Source: Escherichia coli
Lineage (GTDB): Bacteria > Pseudomonadota > Gammaproteobacteria > Enterobacterales > Enterobacteriaceae
Assembly: GCF_003018235.1 (NCBI RefSeq)
Contig: NZ_CP027439.1
Length of the DNA stretch: 64,000 nt
Strand: one strand, 5' to 3'
Under the pieces are notes generated by a model. It saw only the letters and a program-made list of their open reading frames with translations. It was not told the DNA's origin and did no database searches. Every line of letters starts with the position of its first letter. The stretch's first letter is position 1. The translations under genes were made by a program, and so were the position numbers. Shown here in pieces: positions 1-16,318 of the stretch.

Positions 1-1269
1 CGCCTGTATGCCGCGTCACGTCTTGACCCGGAGACGTATAAGAAAGTCCATGATGCCGGTTTCCGCTGGGCACCAAAACAGGCGCTGTTTGTCGCGCCAG
101 CTTGGACACCGGGCCGGGAAGATGTGCTCCTCTCACTTGCCGGAGAGATTGAGGATGAAGACAGCACACTCGCTGAACGTCAGGAAGCACGGGCGGAGCG
201 GTTTACTGGATACAGCGGAAAGCGGGCCAGTGAATCCGCACAGGCACTTGATGAAGTGGAAAGACTGGCCGCGATGATCCCGCCCGGTCAGCCCATTCTT
301 GTGGGGCATCACAGCGAACGCCGCGCCCGTCGTGATGCGCAGCGTATTGAAAACGGCATGAAACGTGCTGTGATGCTCTTTGAACGTGCAGAATACTGGG
401 AAGAGCGGGCGCGCTCGGCACTGCTTCACGCGAAGTATAAAGAACGTCCGGACGTTCGCTGGCGTCGTATCAAAAAAATCGAAGCTGATTTGCGCAAGTC
501 TGAAAAGACCATCGCGCAGTCGCAGAAATATCTGACGATGTGGCGGGCTGAATCGCTGGATCTGAATATGGCAAAACTCATCAGCAGTCATGACCATATC
601 AGCGCCTGTTTCCCGCTGGATACGTATCCGCGCCCGGCAGAAAAAAGCCAGTATGAAGGAAGTCGCTCGTTATGGTCGGCCCTGGATGATGACATCATCA
701 CCACGGAGCAGGCCCGTGAAATTGCGATCCGCTGTCATGAACGGCAGATTCAGCGTCAGCAACGCTGGGTTAACCACTATCAGAACCGCCTGATCTATGA
801 GCGTGCCATGCTGGACGAAAGCGGCGGCGTGGTTACCCGGACACAGGATTTTGAGCCGGGCGGACAGGTTTTCAGCCGGGGTGAGTGGCTGACCATCATC
901 CGCGTGAACAAAAGCAACGGGGCGGTGAGTTCAGTCACAACGCCAAATTACAGTTTTCTCGGGTACAGCGGCACGATGAAAGTGACGCCCGATCGCATCA
1001 CGGACTACAAAGCACCATCGGCAGAAGAGGCTGCCGTCGCCAGCCAGGCCGCGAAGCGTCCGCCGGTAGTCAACTATCCGGGGGAAGGTTTCCGGGAAAT
1101 GACAAAGGCACAGTGGGCCGCCCTGCCCCGGGACTGTAAGGCCGTGCGCAGTGTGGCAGAAGCAGAAGACCACGGGGCATACCGCTACCGCCGCACAATG
1201 GACAATAATTTCCGTCTGGTGAATGTGTATATCACCGACATGAAAATTACGGAAATCCCACAGAAATAA
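1..1269 (+). CDS. Leading-region protein of unknown function, 5' end lies outside the window
   Basis: Reading frame is open from window position 1 with no upstream stop; the listed 381-aa ORF 124..1269 is its C-terminal part. Sits upstream of the methyltransferase and ssb, as in F-like leading regions. Confidence 0.55.
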   Translation, partial: RLYAASRLDPETYKKVHDAGFRWAPKQALFVAPAWTPGREDVLLSLAGEIEDEDSTLAERQEARAERFTGYSGKRASESAQALDEVERLAAMIPPGQPILVGHHSERRARRDAQRIENGMKRAVMLFERAEYWEERARSALLHAKYKERPDVRWRRIKKIEADLRKSEKTIAQSQKYLTMWRAESLDLNMAKLISSHDHISACFPLDTYPRPAEKSQYEGSRSLWSALDDDIITTEQAREIAIRCHERQIQRQQRWVNHYQNRLIYERAMLDESGGVVTRTQDFEPGGQVFSRGEWLTIIRVNKSNGAVSSVTTPNYSFLGYSGTMKVTPDRITDYKAPSAEEAAVASQAAKRPPVVNYPGEGFREMTKAQWAALPRDCKAVRSVAEAEDHGAYRYRRTMDNNFRLVNVYITDMKITEIPQK

Positions 1270-1315
1270 GGTATATCCCCCCGGGAAATCCCCGGGGGAT
1301 GACGGAGATAATGAC

Positions 1316-1879
1316 ATGCACAGTCAGTTAAAAGAACGTATCCGGCTGATGCGCGCAAGGCTGGATAACGCCGCGCCGGTTGCTGAAATCCGGGCTGAAT
1401 CTCAGCTTTTTGTGACTCCTGCCCCGGTCTGTGATCGCCTGGTGACGCTGGCGGAGATCAGCAACCGTGATCACATTCTGGAACCCTCTGCCGGCACCGG
1501 GGCCATACTGCGGGCGATTCGGGATACCGCGCCGGGGGCCATGTGTGATGCGGTGGAAATCAACAGCGGGCTGGTCCGGTATCTGCGGGAAAATTTTAAC
1601 GGTGTCAGGGTTCAGTGTGGCGACTTCATGGAATGGCAGCCGGTGCAGTATTACAGCCGGGTTATCATGAATCCGCCGTTCAGCCACGGGCAGGATATCC
1701 GGCATATCCTGCGGGCCTTTTCCCTGTTGCGTCCGGGTGGCGTGCTGGTTGCCGTCTGTCTGAACGGGCCGCGCCAGCAGGAGAAGCTGTTACCGTTTTC
1801 TGACGTCCGCGAGGAGCTGCCACGCGGCACGTTTGCTTATACCGATGTTCCGACGATGATTATTCGTCTGCGTGCCTGA
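1316..1879 (+). CDS. Orphan DNA methyltransferase (N6-adenine type)
   Basis: 187-aa ORF with AdoMet-binding motif EPSAGTGA and catalytic NPPF motif; no adjacent restriction endonuclease gene. Confidence 0.75.
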   Translation: MHSQLKERIRLMRARLDNAAPVAEIRAESQLFVTPAPVCDRLVTLAEISNRDHILEPSAGTGAILRAIRDTAPGAMCDAVEINSGLVRYLRENFNGVRVQCGDFMEWQPVQYYSRVIMNPPFSHGQDIRHILRAFSLLRPGGVLVAVCLNGPRQQEKLLPFSDVREELPRGTFAYTDVPTMIIRLRA

Positions 1880-2060
1880 TGACTCCGGGCAGGCGGGAGG
1901 ACAAATGCCCGTCTGCCCGCGCCGGGAAAAGACCGCGCGCCGGTGGCGCTGAAAGGGGCCGCGCTCACGCGCCGCCCCTTACATTACGCGGACATTCTGC
2001 TGTGGGCTTCTGTCTTTTCAGACCTGTCATTTGTCTGTTACTGATGATGTTGTTGTTCCT

Positions 2061-2108
2061 GCTACTGCTACTGCTACTGCTACTGCTACTGCTACTGCTA
2101 CTGCTACT
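2061..2108. repeat. Hexanucleotide microsatellite (GCTACT)x8
   Basis: Eight perfect tandem copies read directly from the sequence; preceded by TGATGA/TGTTGT triplet repeats. Confidence 0.9.
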
Positions 2109-2109
2109 G

Positions 2110-2700
2110 TTCTTCTTTTTTCTGCTGTTCTGATTACTGCCTGTTTTGTTGTTCTCCTGCTTATGCCTTTTCCGGGCGTCCCCCTGGCGGGGCGGGCTGT
2201 CGTGAACGGAGCCAGCGAAGCTGTCTCCGCCCTGGCGGGCTTCCATCCCTGACGCGAAACCCCGGGCTTGCAGCGACCGTTCCGGTCGCGCCGCCTCTGT
2301 CGCGCCGTGGCCTGCGCTCCCGGCATCCCGGCAAAAGGCCGCCGGGATGTAAGGGGCAACGCCGTTTCGCAAACCGCGCTTCACGTCGTTGCGGCGGGTC
2401 CCTGTCCGTTGTTGTGTCCGGTGCCATTCACCTGTTTAAGCCCCTGTCGCCGGGGGCTGATACAGCCACAACCGTCTCCGCCAGTCCAGGGGTGAAATGT
2501 ACATCCCGCAAAACTTTTTGCCCAAAAGCAGGCAAAAACTTTTGCGGTCTGCCCCCGGACAGTCGTTTCCGGCCGTGGCAGTGATGCCCCTTGCGGCGAA
2601 GGTTCTCAAAAAGGTGATGGTGAATACCGGAGGGAACAAAAGGCAGGTCCCCGCAAAACGTCAAAACCGCGGCTCCCGAAACTCAAAAGATGATGGGGGC
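2110..2700 (+). promoter_or_regulatory. Frpo/ssi-like structured repeat, copy A (candidate single-strand promoter) upstream of ssb
   Basis: About 600 bp of GC-rich, hairpin-dense non-coding DNA ending just before the ssb RBS; paralogous to 7480..8125. Contains hairpin 2506..2547 (ccgcaaaactttttgcc/ggcaaaaacttttgcgg). Confidence 0.5.
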
Positions 2701-2728
2701 TGAAAACATCAACAGAAGGAGGCACATC

Positions 2729-6069: not shown

Positions 6070-6785
6070 GCGTACGTTCACAGGCACTGGTTCCCCTCAG
6101 CACAGAGCAACAGGCCGCATGGCGGGCGGTGGCGGAGACAGAAAAACGCCGCCATCAGGGTAACACGCTGGCGGAATATCCGTATGCGGGGGCGTTTTTC
6201 CGCTGTCTGAACGGAAGCCGCAGGATATCGCTGTCTGACCTGCGATTTTTCATGCCGTCCCTGACCGCAGAAGAACTGCACGGCAACCGTCTTCAGTGGC
6301 TGTATGCAGTCGATGTGCTGATTGAAACACAGGGCGAGGTCTGCCTCCTTCCCCTTCCCGGTGATGCAGCAGAGCGGTTGTTTCCGTCGGTGCGGTTTCG
6401 TGTCAGGGAGCGCAGTCGCCATAAATCCGCGCTGGTCATGCAGAAGTACAGCCGCCAGCAGGCACGGGAGGCAGAGCAGAAAGCCCGTGCGTACCAGGCG
6501 CTGGTCGCTCAGGCTGAAATCGAACTGGCATTCCATTCGCCGGAAACAGTCGGAAGCTGGCATGCACGCTGGAGTGACCGGGTGGCAGAGCATGACCTGG
6601 AAACCCTGTTCTGGCAGTGGGGCGAGCGTTTTCCGTCACTGGCCGGAATGGAACGCTGGCAGTGGCAGGATATGCCGTTCTGGCAGGTTATTGCGGAAGC
6701 CAGTCTTGCAGCAAGAGAGGCCGGTCACGCTGTCCGTGAGATGGAGCGGTGGATGGTGCCGAACAAACTCCGGGAGGCTGCGTGA
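6066..6785 (+). CDS. psiA: Plasmid SOS inhibition protein A
   Basis: 239 aa, start overlaps the psiB stop (ATGA); conserved psiB-psiA operon arrangement. Confidence 0.85.
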
Positions 6786-6929
6786 TGCGGCAACAATCAC
6801 ACAGATTACCCGTAAACAGCCTGAATGAGCGGGTTATTTTCAGGAAAAGTGAGTGTGGTCAGCGTGCAGGGATATGGGCTATGATGTGCCCGGCGCTTGA
6901 GGCTTTCTGCCTCATGACGTGAAGGTGGT

Positions 6930-7010
6930 TTGTTGCCGTGTTGTGTGGCAGAAAGAAGATAGCCCCGTAGTAAGTTAATTTTCATTAACCACCACGAGGC
7001 ATCCCTATGT
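6930..7010 (-). ncRNA. sok: Sok/FlmB-like antisense RNA of the hok-type killer locus (approximate position)
   Basis: Placed from the hok/sok paradigm: antisense to the leader and mok start upstream of hok. No promoter or ends were mapped. Confidence 0.3.
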
Positions 7011-7219
7011 CTAGTCCACATCAGGATAGCCTCTTACCGCGCTTTGCGCAAGGAGAAGAAGGCCATGAAACTACCACGAAGTTCCCTTGTCTGGTGTGTG
7101 TTGATCGTGTGTCTCACACTGTTGATATTCACTTATCTGACACGAAAATCGCTGTGCGAGATTCGTTACAGAGACGGACACAGGGAGGTGGCGGCTTTCA
7201 TGGCTTACGAATCCGGTAA
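7007..7219 (+). CDS. mok: Mok/FlmC-like overlapping reading frame (modulation of killing)
   Basis: 70-aa ORF overlapping hok in a different frame, as in hok/sok and flm loci. Confidence 0.6.
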
Positions 7220-7223
7220 GTAG
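7065..7223 (+). CDS. hok: Hok/FlmA-family type I toxin
   Basis: 52-aa peptide [52 protein letters not shown], typical Hok/Gef family; followed by GC-rich hairpins (fbi/terminator-like) at 7225..7330. Confidence 0.88.
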
Positions 7224-7479
7224 CAACCTGGAGGCGGGCGCAGGCCCGCCTTTTCAGGACTGATGCTGGTCTGACTACTGAAGCGCCTTTATAAAGGGGC
7301 TGCTGGTTCGCTGGTAGCCCCTTTCTCCTTGCTGATGTTGTACGGGCATGAACAACCTGACTTCAGGAAGATCGTTTCCCTTCAGGAACGGGGATGAACG
7401 CGCGCCTGCGGCGCCCGTTCTTTTCCCCCGCCTTCTCTGGTTATGGCCTGTCAGAAATCACATCACCTTCCCTGTGATT

Positions 7480-8125
7480 ATTCTCTTTTTCTTCCTGCTC
7501 TGATTCTGACTACTGCAGTGTTGTCCTGTCTGCTAGGCGCACCTTCGGCTCCCGGCTGCCTGGCGGCATCCGGTCGTCAGGCCCGACTCCGACAGGCAGC
7601 TGCTGGCGCACCTGCCAGTCTCCGCCGAACCCGCTGGCGCGGTTTCGGGCTGTCGCTACGGTCCGATGCGTGAAAACCACAGGCTTGCAGCGACCGTTCC
7701 GGTCGCGCCGCCTCTGTCGCGCCGTAGCCTGCGCTCCCGGCATCCCGGCAAAAGGCCGCCGGGATGTAAGGGGCAACGCCGTTTCGCAAACCGCGCTTCA
7801 CGTCGTTGCGGCGGGTCCCTGCCCGTTGTTGTGTCCGGTGCCATTCACCTGTTTAAGCCCCTGTCGCCGGGGGCTGATACAGCCACAACCTGCCGCACTG
7901 ACTGTCCAGGGTAAATGAACAGCCCACAAAATTTTTTACCCAAAACCCGGTAAAAAATTTTGCGTTCTGCCCAGGACAGGTGCGTCAGGCCGTGGCAGTG
8001 ATGCCCCTTGCGGCGAAGGTTCTCAAACAGGTGATGGTTAATACCGGAGGGAACAAAAGGCAGGTCCCCGCAAAACGTCAAAACCGCGGCTCCCGAAACT
8101 CAACAGATGATGGGGGCTGAAAACC
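7480..8125 (+). promoter_or_regulatory. Frpo/ssi-like structured repeat, copy B, upstream of the orf95-like gene
   Basis: Paralogue of 2110..2700 with long identical blocks (7683..7897, 7985..8125). Hairpin 7925..7964 (cacaaaattttttacc/ggtaaaaaattttgcg) carries compensatory changes relative to copy A. Confidence 0.5.
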
Positions 8126-8137
8126 AGAGAAAGCAGG

Positions 8138-8425
8138 ATGAGTACCCGAAATATCCACGTTAACACCGCGTCGTACACGCTTCTTGTTGCCGGGAAGAAA
8201 AAAAACACCGGGGAAGAGTGGGACGTCCTGGAATTCAGCAGCCTGACTGAGCTGAAAAAATATCGCAAAAGCCACCCGGAAAAGATGGCCTTCAGCTATA
8301 GCTACGCGCTCAGCCAGGGTGTGGATACGCAGTTCCGCCATATCAACATTGCGGAAGCTGATCACTTCAAACAGTTCCTGCGTCAGATTAAGCGTGCCGG
8401 CCTCGATATCCGGGCGATCTGCTGA
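8138..8425 (+). CDS. Leading-region protein, orf95-like
   Basis: 95-aa ORF directly downstream of Frpo-like copy B. Confidence 0.6.
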   Translation: MSTRNIHVNTASYTLLVAGKKKNTGEEWDVLEFSSLTELKKYRKSHPEKMAFSYSYALSQGVDTQFRHINIAEADHFKQFLRQIKRAGLDIRAIC

Positions 8426-8542
8426 CCGGATGTGATGAATATCCCTCCTGATTGTTGCAATGTTGTTAATGGAGAACGGGGGGATGATATTAAGCGGAAA
8501 AATTTTTTATTAAATTTATTCTTTCATAAAGGAGTAGCTGTT

Positions 8543-9364
8543 ATGCGATTAGCTTCCCGTTTTGGTCGGTATAATTCCATCCGCCGTGAACGTCCTTTAA
8601 CGGATGATGAATTAATGCAGTTCGTGCCTTCGGTATTTTCCGGTGATAAACATGAGTCCCGGAGTGAACGTTATACGTATATTCCAACAATCAATATCAT
8701 CAATAAGTTACGTGATGAAGGTTTCCAGCCATTCTTTGCCTGTCAGAGTCGGGTTCGTGATTTGGGGCGTCGGGAATACAGTAAATATATGTTACGTCTT
8801 CGTAGGGAAGGGCATATTAACGGGCAGGAAGTTCCTGAAATTATCCTGCTTAATTCACATGATGGTTCATCCAGTTATCAGATGATCCCGGGAATTTTTC
8901 GTTTTGTCTGCACAAATGGCCTGGTGTGCGGAAATAATTTTGGCGAAATCCGCGTTCCACATAAAGGTGATATTGTCGGGCAGGTTATCGAGGGAGCGTA
9001 TGAAGTGCTCGGTGTCTTTGATAAGGTCACTGATAATATGGAGGCAATGAAAGAAATTCATCTTAACAGTGACGAGCAACATTTATTTGGCAGAGCTGCC
9101 CTGATGGTCAGGTATGAAGATGAAAATAAAACGCCGGTGACGCCTGAACAGATAATTACTCCCCGTCGTCGGGAGGATAAACAGAACGATCTCTGGACAA
9201 CCTGGCAGCGGGTTCAGGAGAATATGATAAAAGGTGGATTATCGGGGCGAAGTGCCTCCGGGAAAAATACCAGGACAAGAGCCATTACAGGTATTGATGG
9301 TGATATAAGAATCAACAAAGCATTATGGATGATTGCCGAACAGTTCAGGGAGTGGAAGTCATGA
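8543..9364 (+). CDS. Leading-region protein, orf273-like (DUF932-type)
   Basis: 273-aa product from internal start MRLASRFGRY; size and position match the F-like orf273. Confidence 0.6.
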   Translation: MRLASRFGRYNSIRRERPLTDDELMQFVPSVFSGDKHESRSERYTYIPTINIINKLRDEGFQPFFACQSRVRDLGRREYSKYMLRLRREGHINGQEVPEIILLNSHDGSSSYQMIPGIFRFVCTNGLVCGNNFGEIRVPHKGDIVGQVIEGAYEVLGVFDKVTDNMEAMKEIHLNSDEQHLFGRAALMVRYEDENKTPVTPEQIITPRRREDKQNDLWTTWQRVQENMIKGGLSGRSASGKNTRTRAITGIDGDIRINKALWMIAEQFREWKS

Positions 9365-9660
9365 TAATATAAGTAAAGCCCCGAAAAATTTTTCGGGGCT
9401 TTACTTATATTATCATCCTGCGGCATTGCTATGTCGTCTGATATGCCTCAATTTCATCAACTGGCTTTTCGGTAGTATGTAAATATTGTGCCCGCGAAAA
9501 ATGGTCTGGCAGGAGGCTGCGCAGTTACCGGATATATATAAGATGGGTTCCCGCTTTGCGGGGCTTCGGCCAGTCAGTATTGTCACTCATATGATATTTT
9601 TGTGTGTGGCCTTCCATGCCGCTTTTGCGGCATAACCGATATCTGACAATGTCTGTAAGA

Positions 9661-10170
9661 TTAATTGTTCTGCACGCTGTTAATTTCCGGAAGTGATTTC
9701 TTCGTGGTCGGAACCTGGATGCCTTTACTGCTCTTTATCCCGGTATAAATCCGGTAAACCTCTGATGCGTAGGCAAGACGTCTCTGGTTCTGGCGTTCGG
9801 TCTTCCTGAATCCAGCATTGTATGCACCAACGGCCTCCCAGGAGACGCCCCATTTTTTAAAGGCTATTGCCAGATAATAAGCACCGGTATAAATGTTCAT
9901 GCAGGGATCTGTTGTCAGATGTTCCGGCTTAATTCCATAGCGGGCCAGTTCGTTAAAATGCTGGGAATCTACCTGCATCAGTCCGCTGCCATATCCCGTT
10001 ACCGGATTAATACCGATGGCATTAACCCGGTAACGGGATTCTTTCCATGATATTGCTCTCAGTAAATCAGGATCTATTTTGTAATCCCGGCCTGCAAGAT
10101 CAAAGCAATCAGTGGCATGGCAGATCTCATTTATAAACATCAGGCAGATGGCTAACATCCATTTTTTCAT
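9661..10170 (-). CDS. Lytic transglycosylase (orf169 / gene 19 family, VirB1-like)
   Basis: 169 aa with signal peptide [12 protein letters not shown] and transglycosylase motifs ([24 protein letters not shown]); RBS AGGTGG. Confidence 0.85.
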
Positions 10171-10239
10171 TTTTCCACCTCTGGTGACTTTATCCGTAAA
10201 TAATTTAACCCACTCCACAAAAAGGCTCAACAGGTTGGT

Positions 10240-10535
10240 GGTTCTCACCACCAAAAGCACCACACCCCACGCAAAAACAAGTTTTTGCTGATTTTTCTTT
10301 ATAAATAGAGAGTTATGAAAAATTAGTTTCTCTTACTCTCTTTATGATATTTAAAAAAGCGGTGGTACTGACTATTTTTATAAAAAACATTATTTTATAT
10401 TAGGGGCGCTGCTAGCGGCGCGGTGTGTTTTTTTATAGGATAACGCCAGGGGCGCTGCTAGCGGTGCGTCCCTGTTTGCATTATGAATTTTAGTGTTTCG
10501 AAATTAACTTTATTTTATGTTCAAAAAAGGTAATC
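10240..10535. other. oriT: nic region, inverted repeats and direct repeats consistent with TraM binding sites
   Basis: Minus strand reads GGTGGTGAGAACCACC...TTTGCGTGGGGTGTGGTGCTTTTGGTGG (F-type nic motif, nick near 10261/10262); direct repeats GGGGCGCTGCTAGCGG at ~10403 and ~10451; AT-rich tracts. Confidence 0.8.
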
Positions 10536-10539
10536 TCTA

Positions 10540-10923
10540 ATGGCTAAGGTGAACCTGTATATCAGCAATGATGCTTATGAAAAAATAAATGCGATTATTG
10601 AGAAGCGTCGACAGGAAGGGGCAAGGGAAAAAGATATCAGTTTTTCAGCAACAGCTTCAATGCTTCTTGAACTGGGGCTTCGTGTACATGAGGCTCAGAT
10701 GGAGCGTAAAGAGTCTGCATTTAATCAGACTGAGTTTAATAAATTGCTTCTTGAATGCGTTGTAAAAACACAATCATCAGTAGCGAAAATTTTGGGTATT
10801 GAGTCTCTCAGTCCTCATGTCTCCGGAAATCCAAAGTTTGAATATGCCAATATGGTTGAAGATATCAGGGAGAAGGTATCATCTGAGATGGAGCGATTTT
10901 TTCCAAAAAATGATGATGAATAA
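10540..10923 (+). CDS. traM: Relaxosome accessory protein TraM
   Basis: 127 aa, MAKVNLYISNDAYEKINAIIEKRRQEGAREKDISFSATASMLLELGLRV. Confidence 0.93.
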   Translation: MAKVNLYISNDAYEKINAIIEKRRQEGAREKDISFSATASMLLELGLRVHEAQMERKESAFNQTEFNKLLLECVVKTQSSVAKILGIESLSPHVSGNPKFEYANMVEDIREKVSSEMERFFPKNDDE

Positions 10924-14314: not shown

Positions 14315-15741
14315 TGGCCAGTATCAATACCATTGTGAAACGCAAGCAGTACCTGTGGCTGGGGATTGTGGTTGTCGGTACAGCCTCCGCGATTGGTGGG
14401 GCACTGTATCTGTCTGATGTGGACATGTCCGGTAACGGTGAAACCGTGGCTGAACAGGAGCCTGTGCCGGATATGACCGGTGTGGTGGATACGACCTTTG
14501 ATGACAAGGTGCGTCAGCATGCCACCACAGAGATGCAGGTGACGGCAGCGCAGATGCAGAAGCAGTATGAGGAAATCCGTCGTGAGCTGGATGTTCTGAA
14601 CAAACAGCGCGGTGATGACCAGCGTCGTATTGAAAAGCTGGGACAGGACAATGCCGCCCTGGCAGAGCAGGTAAAAGCCCTGGGTGCTAATCCCGTCACG
14701 GCGACCGGTGAGCCTGTACCGCAGATGCCTGCCTCACCGCCCGGCCCGGAAGGCGAACCACAGCCAGGAAACACACCCGTATCTTTCCCGCCGCAGGGCA
14801 GCGTTGCTGTTCCACCGCCGACGGCGTTTTATCCCGGGAATGGTGTCACGCCACCACCACAGGTGACGTACCAGTCTGTGCCGGTGCCTAACCGGATACA
14901 GCGTAAGGTGTTTACCCGTAATGAGGGAAAACAGGGACCCTCGCTGCCGTACATTCCGTCAGGAAGTTTTGCGAAAGCCATGCTGATTGAAGGGGCGGAT
15001 GCCAATGCCTCTGTCACTGGTAATGAATCCACGGTGCCGATGCAGCTGCGTATCACCGGCCTGGTGGAAATGCCGAACAGCAAAACGTATGACGCAAAGG
15101 GATGTTTTGTGGGTCTGGAAGCCTGGGGGGATGTCTCCAGTGAGCGTGCCATTGTACGTACCCGCAATATCAGCTGCCTGAAGGACGGCAAAACCATTGA
15201 TATGCCGATTAAGGGGCATGTCAGCTTCCGGGGTAAAAACGGTATTAAGGGCGAAGTGGTGATGCGTAACGGCAAAATCCTCGGCTGGGCATGGGGCGCG
15301 GGATTTGTTGACGGTATCGGTCAGGGAATGGAGCGTGCTTCCCAGCCGGCTGTCGGGCTGGGTGCCACTGCTGCTTACGGGGCCGGCGATGTCCTTAAAA
15401 TGGGTATCGGTGGCGGCGCATCGAAAGCCGCACAGACGCTCAGTGACTACTACATCAAACGTGCCGAACAGTATCACCCGGTGATACCGATTGGTGCGGG
15501 CAACGAAGTGACCGTGGTGTTCCAGGACGGCTTCCAGCTGAAAACCGTGGAAGAGATGGCGCTGGAGCGCACGCAGAACAGAGCGGAAGAAGATAATCCG
15601 GAAAGTCCGGTTCCTGTTCCGCCATCAGCTGAAAGTCATCTTAACGGCTTTAATACTGACCAGATGCTGAAGCAGCTGGGCAACCTGAATCCGCAGCAGT
15701 TTATGTCCGGCAGCCAGGGAGGAGGCAACGATGGCAAATAA
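14314..15741 (+). CDS. traB: T4SS core protein TraB (VirB10-like)
   Basis: 475 aa with coiled-coil and Pro-rich region; start overlaps the traK stop. Confidence 0.9.
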   Translation: MASINTIVKRKQYLWLGIVVVGTASAIGGALYLSDVDMSGNGETVAEQEPVPDMTGVVDTTFDDKVRQHATTEMQVTAAQMQKQYEEIRRELDVLNKQRGDDQRRIEKLGQDNAALAEQVKALGANPVTATGEPVPQMPASPPGPEGEPQPGNTPVSFPPQGSVAVPPPTAFYPGNGVTPPPQVTYQSVPVPNRIQRKVFTRNEGKQGPSLPYIPSGSFAKAMLIEGADANASVTGNESTVPMQLRITGLVEMPNSKTYDAKGCFVGLEAWGDVSSERAIVRTRNISCLKDGKTIDMPIKGHVSFRGKNGIKGEVVMRNGKILGWAWGAGFVDGIGQGMERASQPAVGLGATAAYGAGDVLKMGIGGGASKAAQTLSDYYIKRAEQYHPVIPIGAGNEVTVVFQDGFQLKTVEEMALERTQNRAEEDNPESPVPVPPSAESHLNGFNTDQMLKQLGNLNPQQFMSGSQGGGNDGK

Positions 15742-16318
15742 TATGTCGTCCCGTCAGGCGTGCCATGCCGCCCGGTATGTTGTCGCCCGGGTTCTGCGAG
15801 GACTGTTCTGGTGTCTGAAATACGCCGTCATTCTGCCACTGGCCACAATGGCCCTGATGGCTCTGTTTGTTTTATGGAAGGACAACACCACGCCGGGAAA
15901 ATTGCTGGTTCAGGAGATCGAGTTTGTAAGGGGCAGAACGCCAGCGGGGTTATATCCGGTCCGATACTGCTCGAACAGTTTTGGTTCCGATTTAGCGATG
16001 CCTCCGTCTGTAACGTGCGGTTTTCGCCGGGGGGATGCTGCAGAATATGCCAGGGAGACTGACCGGTCACTGATGCAACTGTTCACCGCATTATGGGCAA
16101 CGCTGGCACTGATGTATGTCTCGCTGGCGGTGATCTCCGGAAAATGTCCGATGCGACCCGGAAAAATGAAATGTGTCCGGGTGGTAACCGCAGATGAACA
16201 TCTGAAGGAAGTTCTTACGGAAGATGCTTCCCTGCCGGAAAAAATCAGGAAATGGCCTGTTTATCTTCCTGATGACAGAACAAACAGAAACAACGGAGAT
16301 AAAAATGAACATGCGTAA
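15731..16318 (+). CDS. traP: TraP
   Basis: 195-aa membrane protein in the conserved position. Confidence 0.8.
   Translation: MANNMSSRQACHAARYVVARVLRGLFWCLKYAVILPLATMALMALFVLWKDNTTPGKLLVQEIEFVRGRTPAGLYPVRYCSNSFGSDLAMPPSVTCGFRRGDAAEYARETDRSLMQLFTALWATLALMYVSLAVISGKCPMRPGKMKCVRVVTADEHLKEVLTEDASLPEKIRKWPVYLPDDRTNRNNGDKNEHA

What the first reader, a model, noticed from the sequence alone, without database searches (positions are those of the whole stretch)
1..1269. Large leading-region gene of unknown function running off the window edge
The ORF is open from position 1, so the gene is longer than the listed 381-aa ORF. The product is charged and helical with no motif I can assign, and it lies in the anti-defence-rich leading region next to the methyltransferase.
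Basis: seen in the sequence. Interest (0 to 1): 0.35.

Follow-up and report, generated by a model that had tools for sequence, protein, structure and literature searches.

The report
Non-catalytic half of split plasmid methyltransferase
This is ydbA, a DUF3560-family plasmid gene cut by the window edge and carried by about half of all complete E. coli genomes; its relatives show it is most likely the non-enzymatic half of a two-gene DNA methyltransferase switched on as the plasmid enters a new cell, which nobody has tested.

Summary
Window 1..1269 (+) is an ORF open from base 1. Near-identical plasmids show that it is the last 422 codons of a 453-codon gene whose ATG lies 93 nt upstream of the window. 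The gene is not an orphan: it is ydbA, Pfam DUF3560, found in 4,147 PLSDB plasmids and 2,846 of 5,426 complete E. coli genomes. It was already listed as an uncharacterised family enriched in leading regions (Samuel et al. 2024, family 28).

The new point is its link to the next gene. In 100 of 150 diverged family representatives, and in 73 of 77 evaluable viral-contig loci, the whole ~450-aa module is fused in one polypeptide to a homologue of the adjacent 187-aa methyltransferase (window 1316..1879). That enzyme resembles the M.TaqI catalytic domain and has no target-recognition domain.

So ydbA is most likely the non-catalytic, probably nucleic-acid-binding, part of a split orphan N6-adenine methyltransferase. 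It is probably expressed early from an Frpo-type single-strand promoter. AlphaFold models are confident (pLDDT 94), but the module has no solved structural relative. Classic F lacks the cassette. Activity, substrate and anti-restriction role are inferred, not shown.

The parts
1..1269 (+). ydbA (DUF3560-family gene), codons 32-453 plus the stop. The first 31 codons and the start lie upstream of the window.
   Evidence: ORF open from base 1. The gene is 453 aa in relatives that are 98% identical. 17-19 synonymous versus 3-4 non-synonymous codon differences.
1..165 (+). C-terminal part (residues 32-86) of the small alpha/beta N-terminal domain. It is acidic and is the most conserved folded domain of the family, with the motif AGFxWAPKQxLFVAPxWTP.
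   Evidence: AF2 secondary structure. Mean conservation 0.71 and family net charge -4.4. 66% mean column identity in A3. No Pfam or PDB sequence match.
172..525 (+). Pfam DUF3560 match (full-protein residues 89-206): three long helices, the second and third strongly basic.
   Evidence: PF12083 E=3.3e-37, 127.8 bits against a cut-off of 27.2. Helices 88-122, 136-178 and 181-212. Family net charge +6.1 and +4.4 on helices 2 and 3.
286..318 (+). Most conserved segment of the family, GQPILVGHHSE (residues 127-137), in the loop between helices 1 and 2.
   Evidence: Residues 127-136 are near-invariant, apart from V132. Loop mean conservation 0.85. pLDDT falls to 72-79 here.
820..1266 (+). Beta-rich C-terminal third (residues 305-453): a small beta-barrel-like unit followed by an alpha+beta domain, basic, with the motif PPLCNYPGEGF.
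   Evidence: AF2 strands 320-368 and 396-442. Family net charge +2.2 and +3.6. No Pfam hit and no PDB profile hit.
1270..1315 (+). 46-nt spacer between ydbA and the methyltransferase gene. It holds a G+C hairpin (1277-1298) with no T run, and GGAG (1304-1307) 8 nt before the ATG. It sits where fused homologues carry a proline-rich linker.
   Evidence: Read from the sequence. No terminator-like or sigma-70-like site here. Linker seen in the consensus of fusion alignment A2.
1316..1879 (+). ydcA, a 187-aa class I SAM methyltransferase and the presumed catalytic partner. Motif X (FVTPAP), motif I (EPSAGTG) and motif IV (NPPF) are present; there is no target-recognition domain.
2257..2707 (-). Frpo-type repeat upstream of ssb, at the right-hand boundary of the cassette. 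A paralogous copy that would drive ydbA lies just upstream of the window in relatives.
   Evidence: Three-copy repeat family in L001. Window copies mapped by blastn. The copy upstream of ydbA folds as T-strand ssDNA with dG -131 kcal/mol, z = -8.15. In F the matching element sits directly upstream of ssb, which the literature calls Frpo2/ssp1b.

Best explanation
The ORF is ydbA, the non-catalytic part of a two-gene orphan N6-adenine methyltransferase. Its partner is the adjacent 187-aa ydcA.

In most relatives the ~450-aa YdbA module and the methyltransferase are one polypeptide. In enterobacterial IncF-type plasmids the gene is split at the inter-domain linker. The catalytic half resembles the M.TaqI catalytic domain but has no target-recognition domain.

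Proposed mechanism (inferred): YdbA binds nucleic acid through its basic helices and basic C-terminal domains and holds or positions the catalytic subunit on the substrate. The pair is transcribed from the incoming T-strand, from an Frpo-type single-strand promoter just upstream. It then methylates the entering plasmid DNA and so blunts restriction in the recipient.

Shown: the gene's identity, its intactness, the fusion and adjacency statistics, the methyltransferase class and its lack of a TRD, the promoter-like repeat and its fold, and the leading-region context.

Inferred: physical association of the two proteins, DNA binding by YdbA, DNA as the substrate, early expression, and the anti-restriction effect.
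For: Family identity: PF12083, E=3e-37.

Fusion: 100 of the 150 best 50%-identity representatives carry a homologue of the window's methyltransferase (E 1e-17 to 1e-40) C-terminal to the module. For most of them the alignment spans query residues ~20-451. Pfam confirms DUF3560+MTS in 9 of 10 fusions examined. Of 80 viral-contig loci, 73 are fused, 2 adjacent, 1 overlapping, 3 cut by a contig end and 1 without a methyltransferase.

Other split arrangements: a phage-like contig has a 456-aa gene overlapping a 198-aa methyltransferase by 4 nt, 36% identical to the window enzyme. A diverged PsiB/PsiA-type leading region has the same gene order.

Co-occurrence: 4,147 plasmids match ydbA and 4,039 match ydcA.

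Polyvalent proteins: the unit sits as a block inside a 1,394-aa protein with LPD29.

Models: pLDDT 94.1 / pTM 0.83 for YdbA; pLDDT 93.2 / pTM 0.78 for a 669-aa fusion.

Charge and conserved residues: basic helices and C-terminus, many invariant Arg and Trp.

Expression: no promoter or terminator between the genes. Frpo-type hairpin upstream, z = -8.15. Both genes are on the strand whose template is the T-strand (gene order; established F biology). The family is enriched in leading regions. On pO157 the transcript rises 5.1-fold with ciprofloxacin and the gene also appears in the proteome columns.
Against: No experiment addresses this protein. The recent F-plasmid studies cannot, because F lacks the cassette.

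Fusion alone does not prove cooperation, since polyvalent proteins join unrelated anti-defence domains.

I could not inspect inter-domain contacts or PAE, and could not run a two-chain prediction.

At least one homologue stands alone with no methyltransferase nearby.

Fold matches for the catalytic domain include rRNA and tRNA methyltransferases at similar Z, so DNA is favoured but not established.

The acidic, most conserved N-terminal domain is not explained by simple DNA binding.
Confidence: 0.55

Rival explanations
1. YdbA is an independent anti-defence effector, for example a binder or inhibitor of a host restriction or other defence protein. On this reading its fusion to a methyltransferase elsewhere reflects the 'polyvalent protein' habit of stringing separate early-acting functions together, not a shared mechanism.
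For: The family is enriched in leading regions, among anti-restriction genes. The unit occurs inside large polyvalent proteins with LPD29. An ArdC-N protein lies 2 kb upstream of one fused copy. The most conserved domain is acidic, as in some DNA-mimic inhibitors. One standalone homologue has no methyltransferase nearby.
Against: The same partner, in the same order, appears in 73 of 77 evaluable loci and in two thirds of diverged representatives. That is far more constant than polyvalent shuffling would give. The partner enzyme lacks any substrate-recognition domain of its own. There are no hits to Ard, Klc or other anti-defence families in Pfam or PADLOC.
Confidence: 0.2
2. YdbA is itself an enzyme, a hydrolase or nuclease as some automatic annotations say. 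It would use the near-invariant GHHSE loop together with the invariant H290 and E298 as a metal or catalytic site, making the pair bifunctional.
For: The most conserved segment is a loop with His-His-Ser-Glu. R91, W164, R187, R196, H290, R294 and E298 are invariant. Database names include 'hydrolase' and 'HD superfamily hydrolase'.
Against: There is no Pfam HD or other hydrolase match even at E <= 1, no NCBIfam match, and no PDB sequence or fold relative that is an enzyme. The core is a helical bundle of a kind more typical of scaffolds. The 'hydrolase' name has no traceable evidence behind it.
Confidence: 0.1
3. The YdbA-YdcA pair methylates RNA or a protein of the recipient, such as rRNA, tRNA or a defence or translation factor, rather than plasmid DNA. 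YdbA would serve as the substrate adaptor.
Against: The only significant PDB sequence matches (all four with E < 1e-4) are M.TaqI entries, and M.TaqI also has the highest identity among the fold matches, 30%. Every PADLOC match is a DNA methyltransferase. The 'TP' motif X precedes motif I, as in gamma-class DNA enzymes. The context is phage, ICE and plasmid entry regions.
Confidence: 0.1
4. The ORF is a decaying remnant: the N-terminal piece of a once-fused gene broken by a stop codon and now non-functional.
For: The family's usual state is fused. One Pantoea-like contig shows the gene in three collinear pieces.
Against: The split form, a 450-460-aa gene plus a 187-aa gene, is kept across Enterobacterales down to about 50-55% identity of the methyltransferase and about 70% of YdbA. 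Synonymous changes dominate, 17-19 against 3-4. The downstream gene has its own ribosome-binding site. On pO157 the gene appears in both the transcriptome and the proteome columns.
Confidence: 0.03

Closest known systems
Pfam PF12083 (DUF3560) / plasmid protein YdbA; gene family 28 of Samuel et al. 2024
   Same: It is a member: 127 bits against a 27-bit cut-off, and 98-99% identical to thousands of annotated copies. The family was already listed as uncharacterised and leading-region enriched, with a structural link to a UniProt 'methyltransferase domain protein'.
   Different: Nothing differs; this is the family. The Pfam domain covers only residues 89-206 of 453. The N-terminal, middle and C-terminal parts have no family assignment.
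Fused DUF3560-methyltransferase proteins (620-720 aa) of phage-like, integrative and plasmid elements, uncharacterised
   Same: The window protein aligns with them across the whole ~450-aa module at 42-55% identity. Their C-terminal domain is homologous to the window's next gene.
   Different: Here the protein is split into two genes 46 nt apart, at the position of the proline-rich linker.
M.EcoGIX / M.BceJIII, single-strand-specific leading-region methyltransferases (Fomenkov et al. 2020, PMC7736820)
   Same: An orphan adenine methyltransferase in the early-transferred region, oriented for expression from the entering strand and proposed to block restriction.
   Different: It is a different enzyme class: beta class, DPPY motif, PF01555, and a single polypeptide. 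Its IncF homologue is a separate 227-aa gene about 5 kb further from oriT. It has no DUF3560 partner.
M.TaqI (gamma-class N6-adenine DNA methyltransferase)
   Same: It is the best sequence and fold relative of the partner enzyme. Motifs X, I and IV occur in the same order.
   Different: M.TaqI carries its own C-terminal target-recognition domain. Here the enzyme stops after the catalytic domain. The only candidate recognition module is N-terminal in the fusions, or a separate protein as in this window, and it has an unrelated fold.
Type I R-M methylase, HsdM plus a separate HsdS specificity subunit
   Different: There is no sequence or fold similarity between YdbA and HsdS or the HsdM N-terminal domain, and no restriction subunit nearby.
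DarB-type LPD36-methylase-helicase module of polyvalent proteins (Iyer et al. 2017, PMC5512222)
   Same: An adenine methylase of invading elements with an uncharacterised helical domain N-terminal to it, proposed to act on entering DNA. The DUF3560-methyltransferase unit is also found inside polyvalent proteins.
   Different: The N-terminal module is different and there is no helicase. DUF3560 is not mentioned in that survey.

Membership tests
Pfam DUF3560 (PF12083) | Score above the curated gathering threshold for the family HMM | tested here: met
   127.1-127.8 bits against a cut-off of 27.2; profile positions 3-121 of 124 are covered.
YdbA-type full-length module (N-domain + DUF3560 + C-terminal domains) | Collinear alignment over about 430 residues with diverged family members, with the conserved motifs retained | tested here: met
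   Query residues about 20-451 align in most representatives. All 7 invariant and 66 near-invariant positions are present in the query by construction of A1.
Split/fused DUF3560-methyltransferase unit | A homologous MTS-type methyltransferase fused C-terminally or encoded immediately downstream on the same strand | tested here: met
   The window methyltransferase at 1316-1879 lies 46 nt downstream. It is homologous to the C-terminal domain of 100 of 150 representatives, and 76 of 77 evaluable viral loci have it fused or adjacent.
Split/fused DUF3560-methyltransferase unit | Physical association of the two halves, and dependence of methylation on the DUF3560 module | not testable with these tools
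   Only single-chain AF2 was available, and no PAE or coordinates were returned. This needs co-purification and methylome experiments.
Gamma-class N6-adenine DNA methyltransferase (M.TaqI-like); applies to the partner gene | Motifs X (TP), I (GxG) and IV ((D/N)PP(Y/F)) in that order | tested here: met
   FVTPAP, EPSAGTG and NPPF align with the M.TaqI motifs. G541, G543 and N598-P599-P600 are invariant in 82 fusions.
Gamma-class N6-adenine DNA methyltransferase (M.TaqI-like); applies to the partner gene | A target-recognition domain in the same polypeptide | tested here: not met
M.EcoGIX family (beta-class single-strand methyltransferases) | PF01555 N6_N4_Mtase domain with a DPPY motif | tested here: not met
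   Neither ydbA nor ydcA matches PF01555. The PF01555 gene is a different one, upstream in relatives (L001 2928-3611, E=2e-40).
HD-superfamily or other hydrolase (as named in some records) | A match to an HD or hydrolase family model, or an H..HD..D motif | tested here: not met
   No such Pfam or NCBIfam hit at E <= 1. No enzyme appears among the sequence or fold matches.
Known anti-restriction proteins (ArdA, ArdB/KlcA, ArdC) | A match to the Antirestrict, ArdA or ArdC-N family models | tested here: not met
   Only DUF3560 is reported for the protein. The KlcA-type gene is a separate gene upstream in relatives.
Frpo/ssp1-driven early leading-region operon | An Frpo-homologous element upstream on the T-strand that folds as a long hairpin | tested here: met
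   This was tested in relatives only; the element lies outside the window. L001 6772-7398 is one of three repeat copies. It is 93% identical to F's element upstream of ssb. Fold dG is -131 kcal/mol, z = -8.15.
Frpo/ssp1-driven early leading-region operon | Transcription in the recipient before complementary-strand synthesis | not testable with these tools
   Published early-expression data come from F and pESBL, and F lacks this cassette.

The most novel reading that the evidence does not exclude
The ~450-aa YdbA module is a new kind of nucleic-acid-handling domain set with no solved relative. It would convert a bare, TRD-less adenine methyltransferase into an enzyme that acts on the entering single strand, or on the newly converted duplex, with low or unusual specificity. 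That would give IncF-type plasmids, and many phage-like elements, a second, mechanistically distinct entry-phase methylation system beside M.EcoGIX. A bolder form of the same reading is that the invariant GHHSE/H290/E298 residues form a second active site, so that the pair performs a two-step DNA modification.
Probability: 0.2. Interest if true: 0.7.

Novelty: new variant of a known kind. Interest (0 to 1): 0.42.

Why it matters
The gene is present in 2,846 of 5,426 complete E. coli genomes (52%) and in over 4,000 sequenced plasmids of E. coli, Klebsiella, Salmonella and Shigella. Most of these plasmids are typed as conjugative. It still has no known function.

The model plasmid F lacks it, so recent work on early leading-region expression could not see it. 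If YdbA and YdcA together are an entry-phase methyltransferase, they form a second protective methylation system on the plasmids that spread resistance and virulence genes. They are also a candidate explanation for why restriction is a weak barrier to these plasmids.

The proposal can be tested directly with a methylome and a few deletions. The confidently predicted fold, which has no solved relative, is a reasonable target for structural work.

Tried and rejected
Searches that led nowhere:
- Sequence searches of the full protein against the PDB gave only a chance Cas3 match, E = 1.7.
- NCBIfam gave nothing.
- PADLOC gave nothing for YdbA.
- PHROGs gave only families of unknown function.
- Foldseek against the PDB gave nothing better than E = 0.26. 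A faint Sm-like match (Gemin6/7) to a 65-residue beta unit is not significant.
- The N-terminal, middle and C-terminal pieces gave nothing in Pfam at E <= 10.
- Profile searches of the N- and C-terminal domain alignments against the PDB gave nothing.
- tblastn against 50,697 deposited phage genomes gave one weak partial hit in an archaeal virus, although IMG/VR contigs hold at least 536 relatives.
- Literature searches for DUF3560, and for ydbA together with 'leading region', found no functional study.

Ideas considered and dropped:
- That ydbA-ydcA is the F homologue of M.EcoGIX. It is not, because that enzyme is beta-class PF01555.
- That the three-piece arrangement in a Pantoea-like contig shows modular subunits. 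The pieces are collinear with one gene, so frameshifts or decay are more likely.
- That the gene upstream of standalone homologue P0162 is a displaced methyltransferase. It shows no similarity.

Full report
OBSERVATION. Frame 1 of window 1..1269 is open from the first base: 422 sense codons, then TAA at 1267-1269. The 381-aa ORF from GTG 124 is only the mechanical call. Megablast of window 1-1400 finds the same DNA in 4,147 PLSDB plasmids, nearly all at 95-99% identity. These are mostly conjugative plasmids of Escherichia, Klebsiella, Salmonella and Shigella; the examined hits are IncF-typed.

In CP099082.1 (locus L001) and pSFO157 (L002) the annotated gene is 1,362 nt (453 aa). Window base 1 corresponds to codon 32. 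The ATG lies 93 nt upstream, behind GGAGA. The window copy differs from these two references at 17-19 synonymous and only 3-4 non-synonymous codons. The gene is therefore real, intact and truncated only by the window edge.

The gene is also in 2,846 of 5,426 complete E. coli genomes, and 3,272 of its 3,300 copies there are on plasmids.

CONTEXT. Downstream on the same strand lie, in order: a 187-aa class I SAM methyltransferase (1316-1879), SSB, DUF905, a ParB-like protein, PsiB, PsiA and DUF932. Then come an SLT transglycosylase on the opposite strand, TraM and the tra operon through TraI. This is an IncF leading region, with oriT between about 10.26 and 10.54 kb.

By the established polarity of F transfer, the T-strand is the window's minus strand. 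That makes it the template for these plus-strand genes. This step rests on gene order plus textbook knowledge, not on a test made here.

WHAT THE GENE IS. Pfam assigns residues 89-206 to DUF3560 (PF12083, E=5.5e-37). Some records name the gene ydbA or 'hydrolase'. NCBIfam, PADLOC and PDB sequence searches give nothing, and PHROGs gives only families of unknown function.

The literature holds no functional study. What it does hold:
- Samuel et al. 2024 list it as gene family 28 (n = 1,913), enriched in leading regions and annotated 'Uncharacterized; DUF3560; Methyltransferase domain protein' by structural comparison.
- K. pneumoniae CRISPR spacers target the gene.
- On pO157 its transcript rises 5.1-fold with ciprofloxacin, and it appears in the proteome columns.

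THE KEY RESULT. An exhaustive HMMER search of 1.84 billion cluster representatives finds 3,897 relatives, 693 of them at E <= 1e-30. Most of the best diverged ones (42-55% identity) are 620-720 aa long rather than 450. A local phmmer search shows that 100 of the 150 best representatives carry a region homologous to the window's next gene, the 187-aa methyltransferase (E 1e-17 to 1e-40). That region lies C-terminal to a module that, for most of them, aligns with query residues ~20-451. Pfam confirms DUF3560 plus MTS/N6_Mtase in 9 of the 10 fusions examined.

In IMG/VR, at least 536 stretches encode relatives. Of the 80 loci fetched, 73 have both parts in one ORF, 2 have them adjacent, 1 has them overlapping, 3 are cut by the contig end and 1 lacks a methyltransferase.

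Independent split arrangements also exist. A phage-like contig has a 456-aa gene overlapping a 198-aa methyltransferase by 4 nt, 36% identical to the window enzyme. A diverged PsiB/PsiA-type leading region keeps the same order as the window. Among Enterobacterales the 187-aa stand-alone form of the enzyme persists down to about 51% identity, so the split is old and maintained.

The unit also occurs as a block inside polyvalent proteins of about 1,400 aa, one with LPD29. In the window the split falls where the fusions have a proline-rich linker. The 46-nt spacer holds a G+C hairpin without a T run and a GGAG before the ATG. No promoter-like or terminator-like site separates the genes. ydbA and ydcA occur in almost the same number of plasmids, 4,147 and 4,039.

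THE PARTNER ENZYME. It has motif X (FVTPAP), motif I (EPSAGTG) and motif IV (NPPF). Its best PDB sequence match is M.TaqI (E=1.8e-6), which aligns across these motifs. In 82 fusions the GxG and NPP residues are invariant.

It is therefore an N6-adenine-type catalytic domain with no target-recognition domain of its own. It is not the M.EcoGIX homologue. That enzyme is beta-class with DPPY and PF01555, and it corresponds to a separate 227-aa gene further from oriT.

STRUCTURE OF YdbA. AlphaFold2, run on a 115-sequence alignment, gives pLDDT 94.1 and pTM 0.83. The model has these parts:
- An alpha/beta N-terminal domain (20-85).
- Three long helices (88-122, 136-178, 181-212), which make up the DUF3560 domain.
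- A variable middle region.
- Another long helix (266-304).
- A beta-rich unit (320-368).
- An alpha+beta C-terminal domain (372-442).

The fused homologue gives pLDDT 93.2 and pTM 0.78, and its linker is modelled at about 87. That suggests a compact arrangement, but I could not inspect contacts.

The N-terminal domain is acidic and is the most conserved folded part. Helices 2 and 3 and the C-terminal domains are basic. The invariant residues are R91, W164, R187, R196, H290, R294 and E298. The loop GQPILVGHHSE is the most conserved segment.

EXPRESSION SIGNAL AND CASSETTE STRUCTURE (outside the window, from relatives). L001 carries three copies of a repeat of about 630 nt:
- 6772-7398, upstream of a 76-aa ORF, ydbA and ydcA.
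- 10135-10763, upstream of ssb.
- 15558-16186, upstream of the DUF932 operon.

In the window the last two copies are at 2257-2707 and 7478-8124. In F the element directly upstream of ssb is the one the literature calls Frpo2/ssp1b. The copy upstream of ydbA is 93% identical to it. As T-strand ssDNA it folds into a long hairpin, dG -131 kcal/mol, z = -8.15.

Classic F lacks the whole cassette and has a single repeat copy at the junction. This is consistent with gain or loss by recombination between repeat copies. It also explains why the recent F-based studies of early expression say nothing about this gene.

MECHANISM. I conclude, at about 0.8 confidence, that YdbA and YdcA are one functional unit: a split version of a widespread fused protein.

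At lower confidence (about 0.5 for each step) I infer three further things. YdbA supplies nucleic-acid binding or positioning for the TRD-less catalytic subunit. The substrate is the entering plasmid DNA. The benefit is protection from restriction in the recipient, by analogy with M.EcoGIX and phage orphan methyltransferases.

Rivals are listed separately: an independent anti-defence effector joined by polyvalent logic, a second enzymatic activity at the GHHSE site, an RNA or protein substrate, and gene decay. The last is poorly supported, given the purifying selection and the long-term retention of both genes.

NOVELTY AND SCORE. As a sequence the gene is already known and extremely common. 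As a family it is recognised but uncharacterised. The link to a methyltransferase was hinted at in a supplementary table.

This analysis adds five points:
- The fusion and adjacency statistics.
- The recognition that the IncF gene pair is a split enzyme whose catalytic half lacks a TRD.
- Confident models with no solved relative.
- The Frpo-bounded cassette.
- The cassette's absence from F.

I class it as a new variant of a known kind: an entry-phase orphan methyltransferase with an unfamiliar non-catalytic module. Interest is moderate, 0.42. It is not surprising in principle, but the gene is unusually prevalent and the hypothesis can be tested directly.

Noticed in passing
window 2059-2109 (and up to about 2256): A perfect (CTGCTA)x8.5 hexanucleotide array lies between the methyltransferase gene and the Frpo-type repeat. 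The related plasmid L001 has a longer array (10027-10152), and window 2110-2256 does not align to it, so the simple repeat varies in copy number between plasmids.
   Followed up: partly
window 2257-2707 and 7478-8124; L001 6772-7398: There are three paralogous copies of an Frpo-type element of about 450-630 nt. Two are in the window, upstream of ssb and of the DUF932 operon. The third is just upstream of the window, before the ydbA operon. That third copy folds as T-strand ssDNA with z = -8.15.
   Followed up: partly
L007 (plasmid F, NC_002483.1 49000-67000) versus L001 about 7390-10325: Classic F lacks the whole orf76-ydbA-ydcA cassette and has one repeat copy where relatives have two. This looks like gain or loss by recombination between Frpo copies, and it means F-based experiments do not cover this gene.
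   Followed up: partly
L001 7626-7856 (upstream of the window): A conserved 76-aa ORF lies directly upstream of ydbA, in the same presumed operon. It has a weak, sub-threshold Pfam hit to an HU-like domain (HU-CCDC81, E=7e-4).
   Followed up: no
L091 5560-7594: In a Pantoea-like plasmid contig the ydbA homologue is called as three collinear pieces (89, 191 and 152 aa) ahead of the methyltransferase. The likely causes are frameshifts, decay or assembly errors.
   Followed up: partly
window 1316-1879: The best PADLOC match of the adjacent methyltransferase is mad2 of the MADS defence system (E=1.9e-20). A plasmid entry-phase enzyme and a defence-system methylase therefore share a catalytic domain lineage.
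   Followed up: no
L001 2928-3611 and 5511-5936 (upstream of the window): Relatives carry a second leading-region methyltransferase (PF01555, the M.EcoGIX-type) and a KlcA/ArdB-type antirestriction gene 2-5 kb further from oriT. These plasmids therefore encode two unrelated entry-phase methyltransferases.
   Followed up: partly
L010 7172-7699; L026 977-1606; L004 6674-7126: Fused or split homologues in phage-like and integrative elements sit near other establishment or anti-restriction genes: Lar restriction alleviation, an ArdC-N protein and RadC.
   Followed up: no
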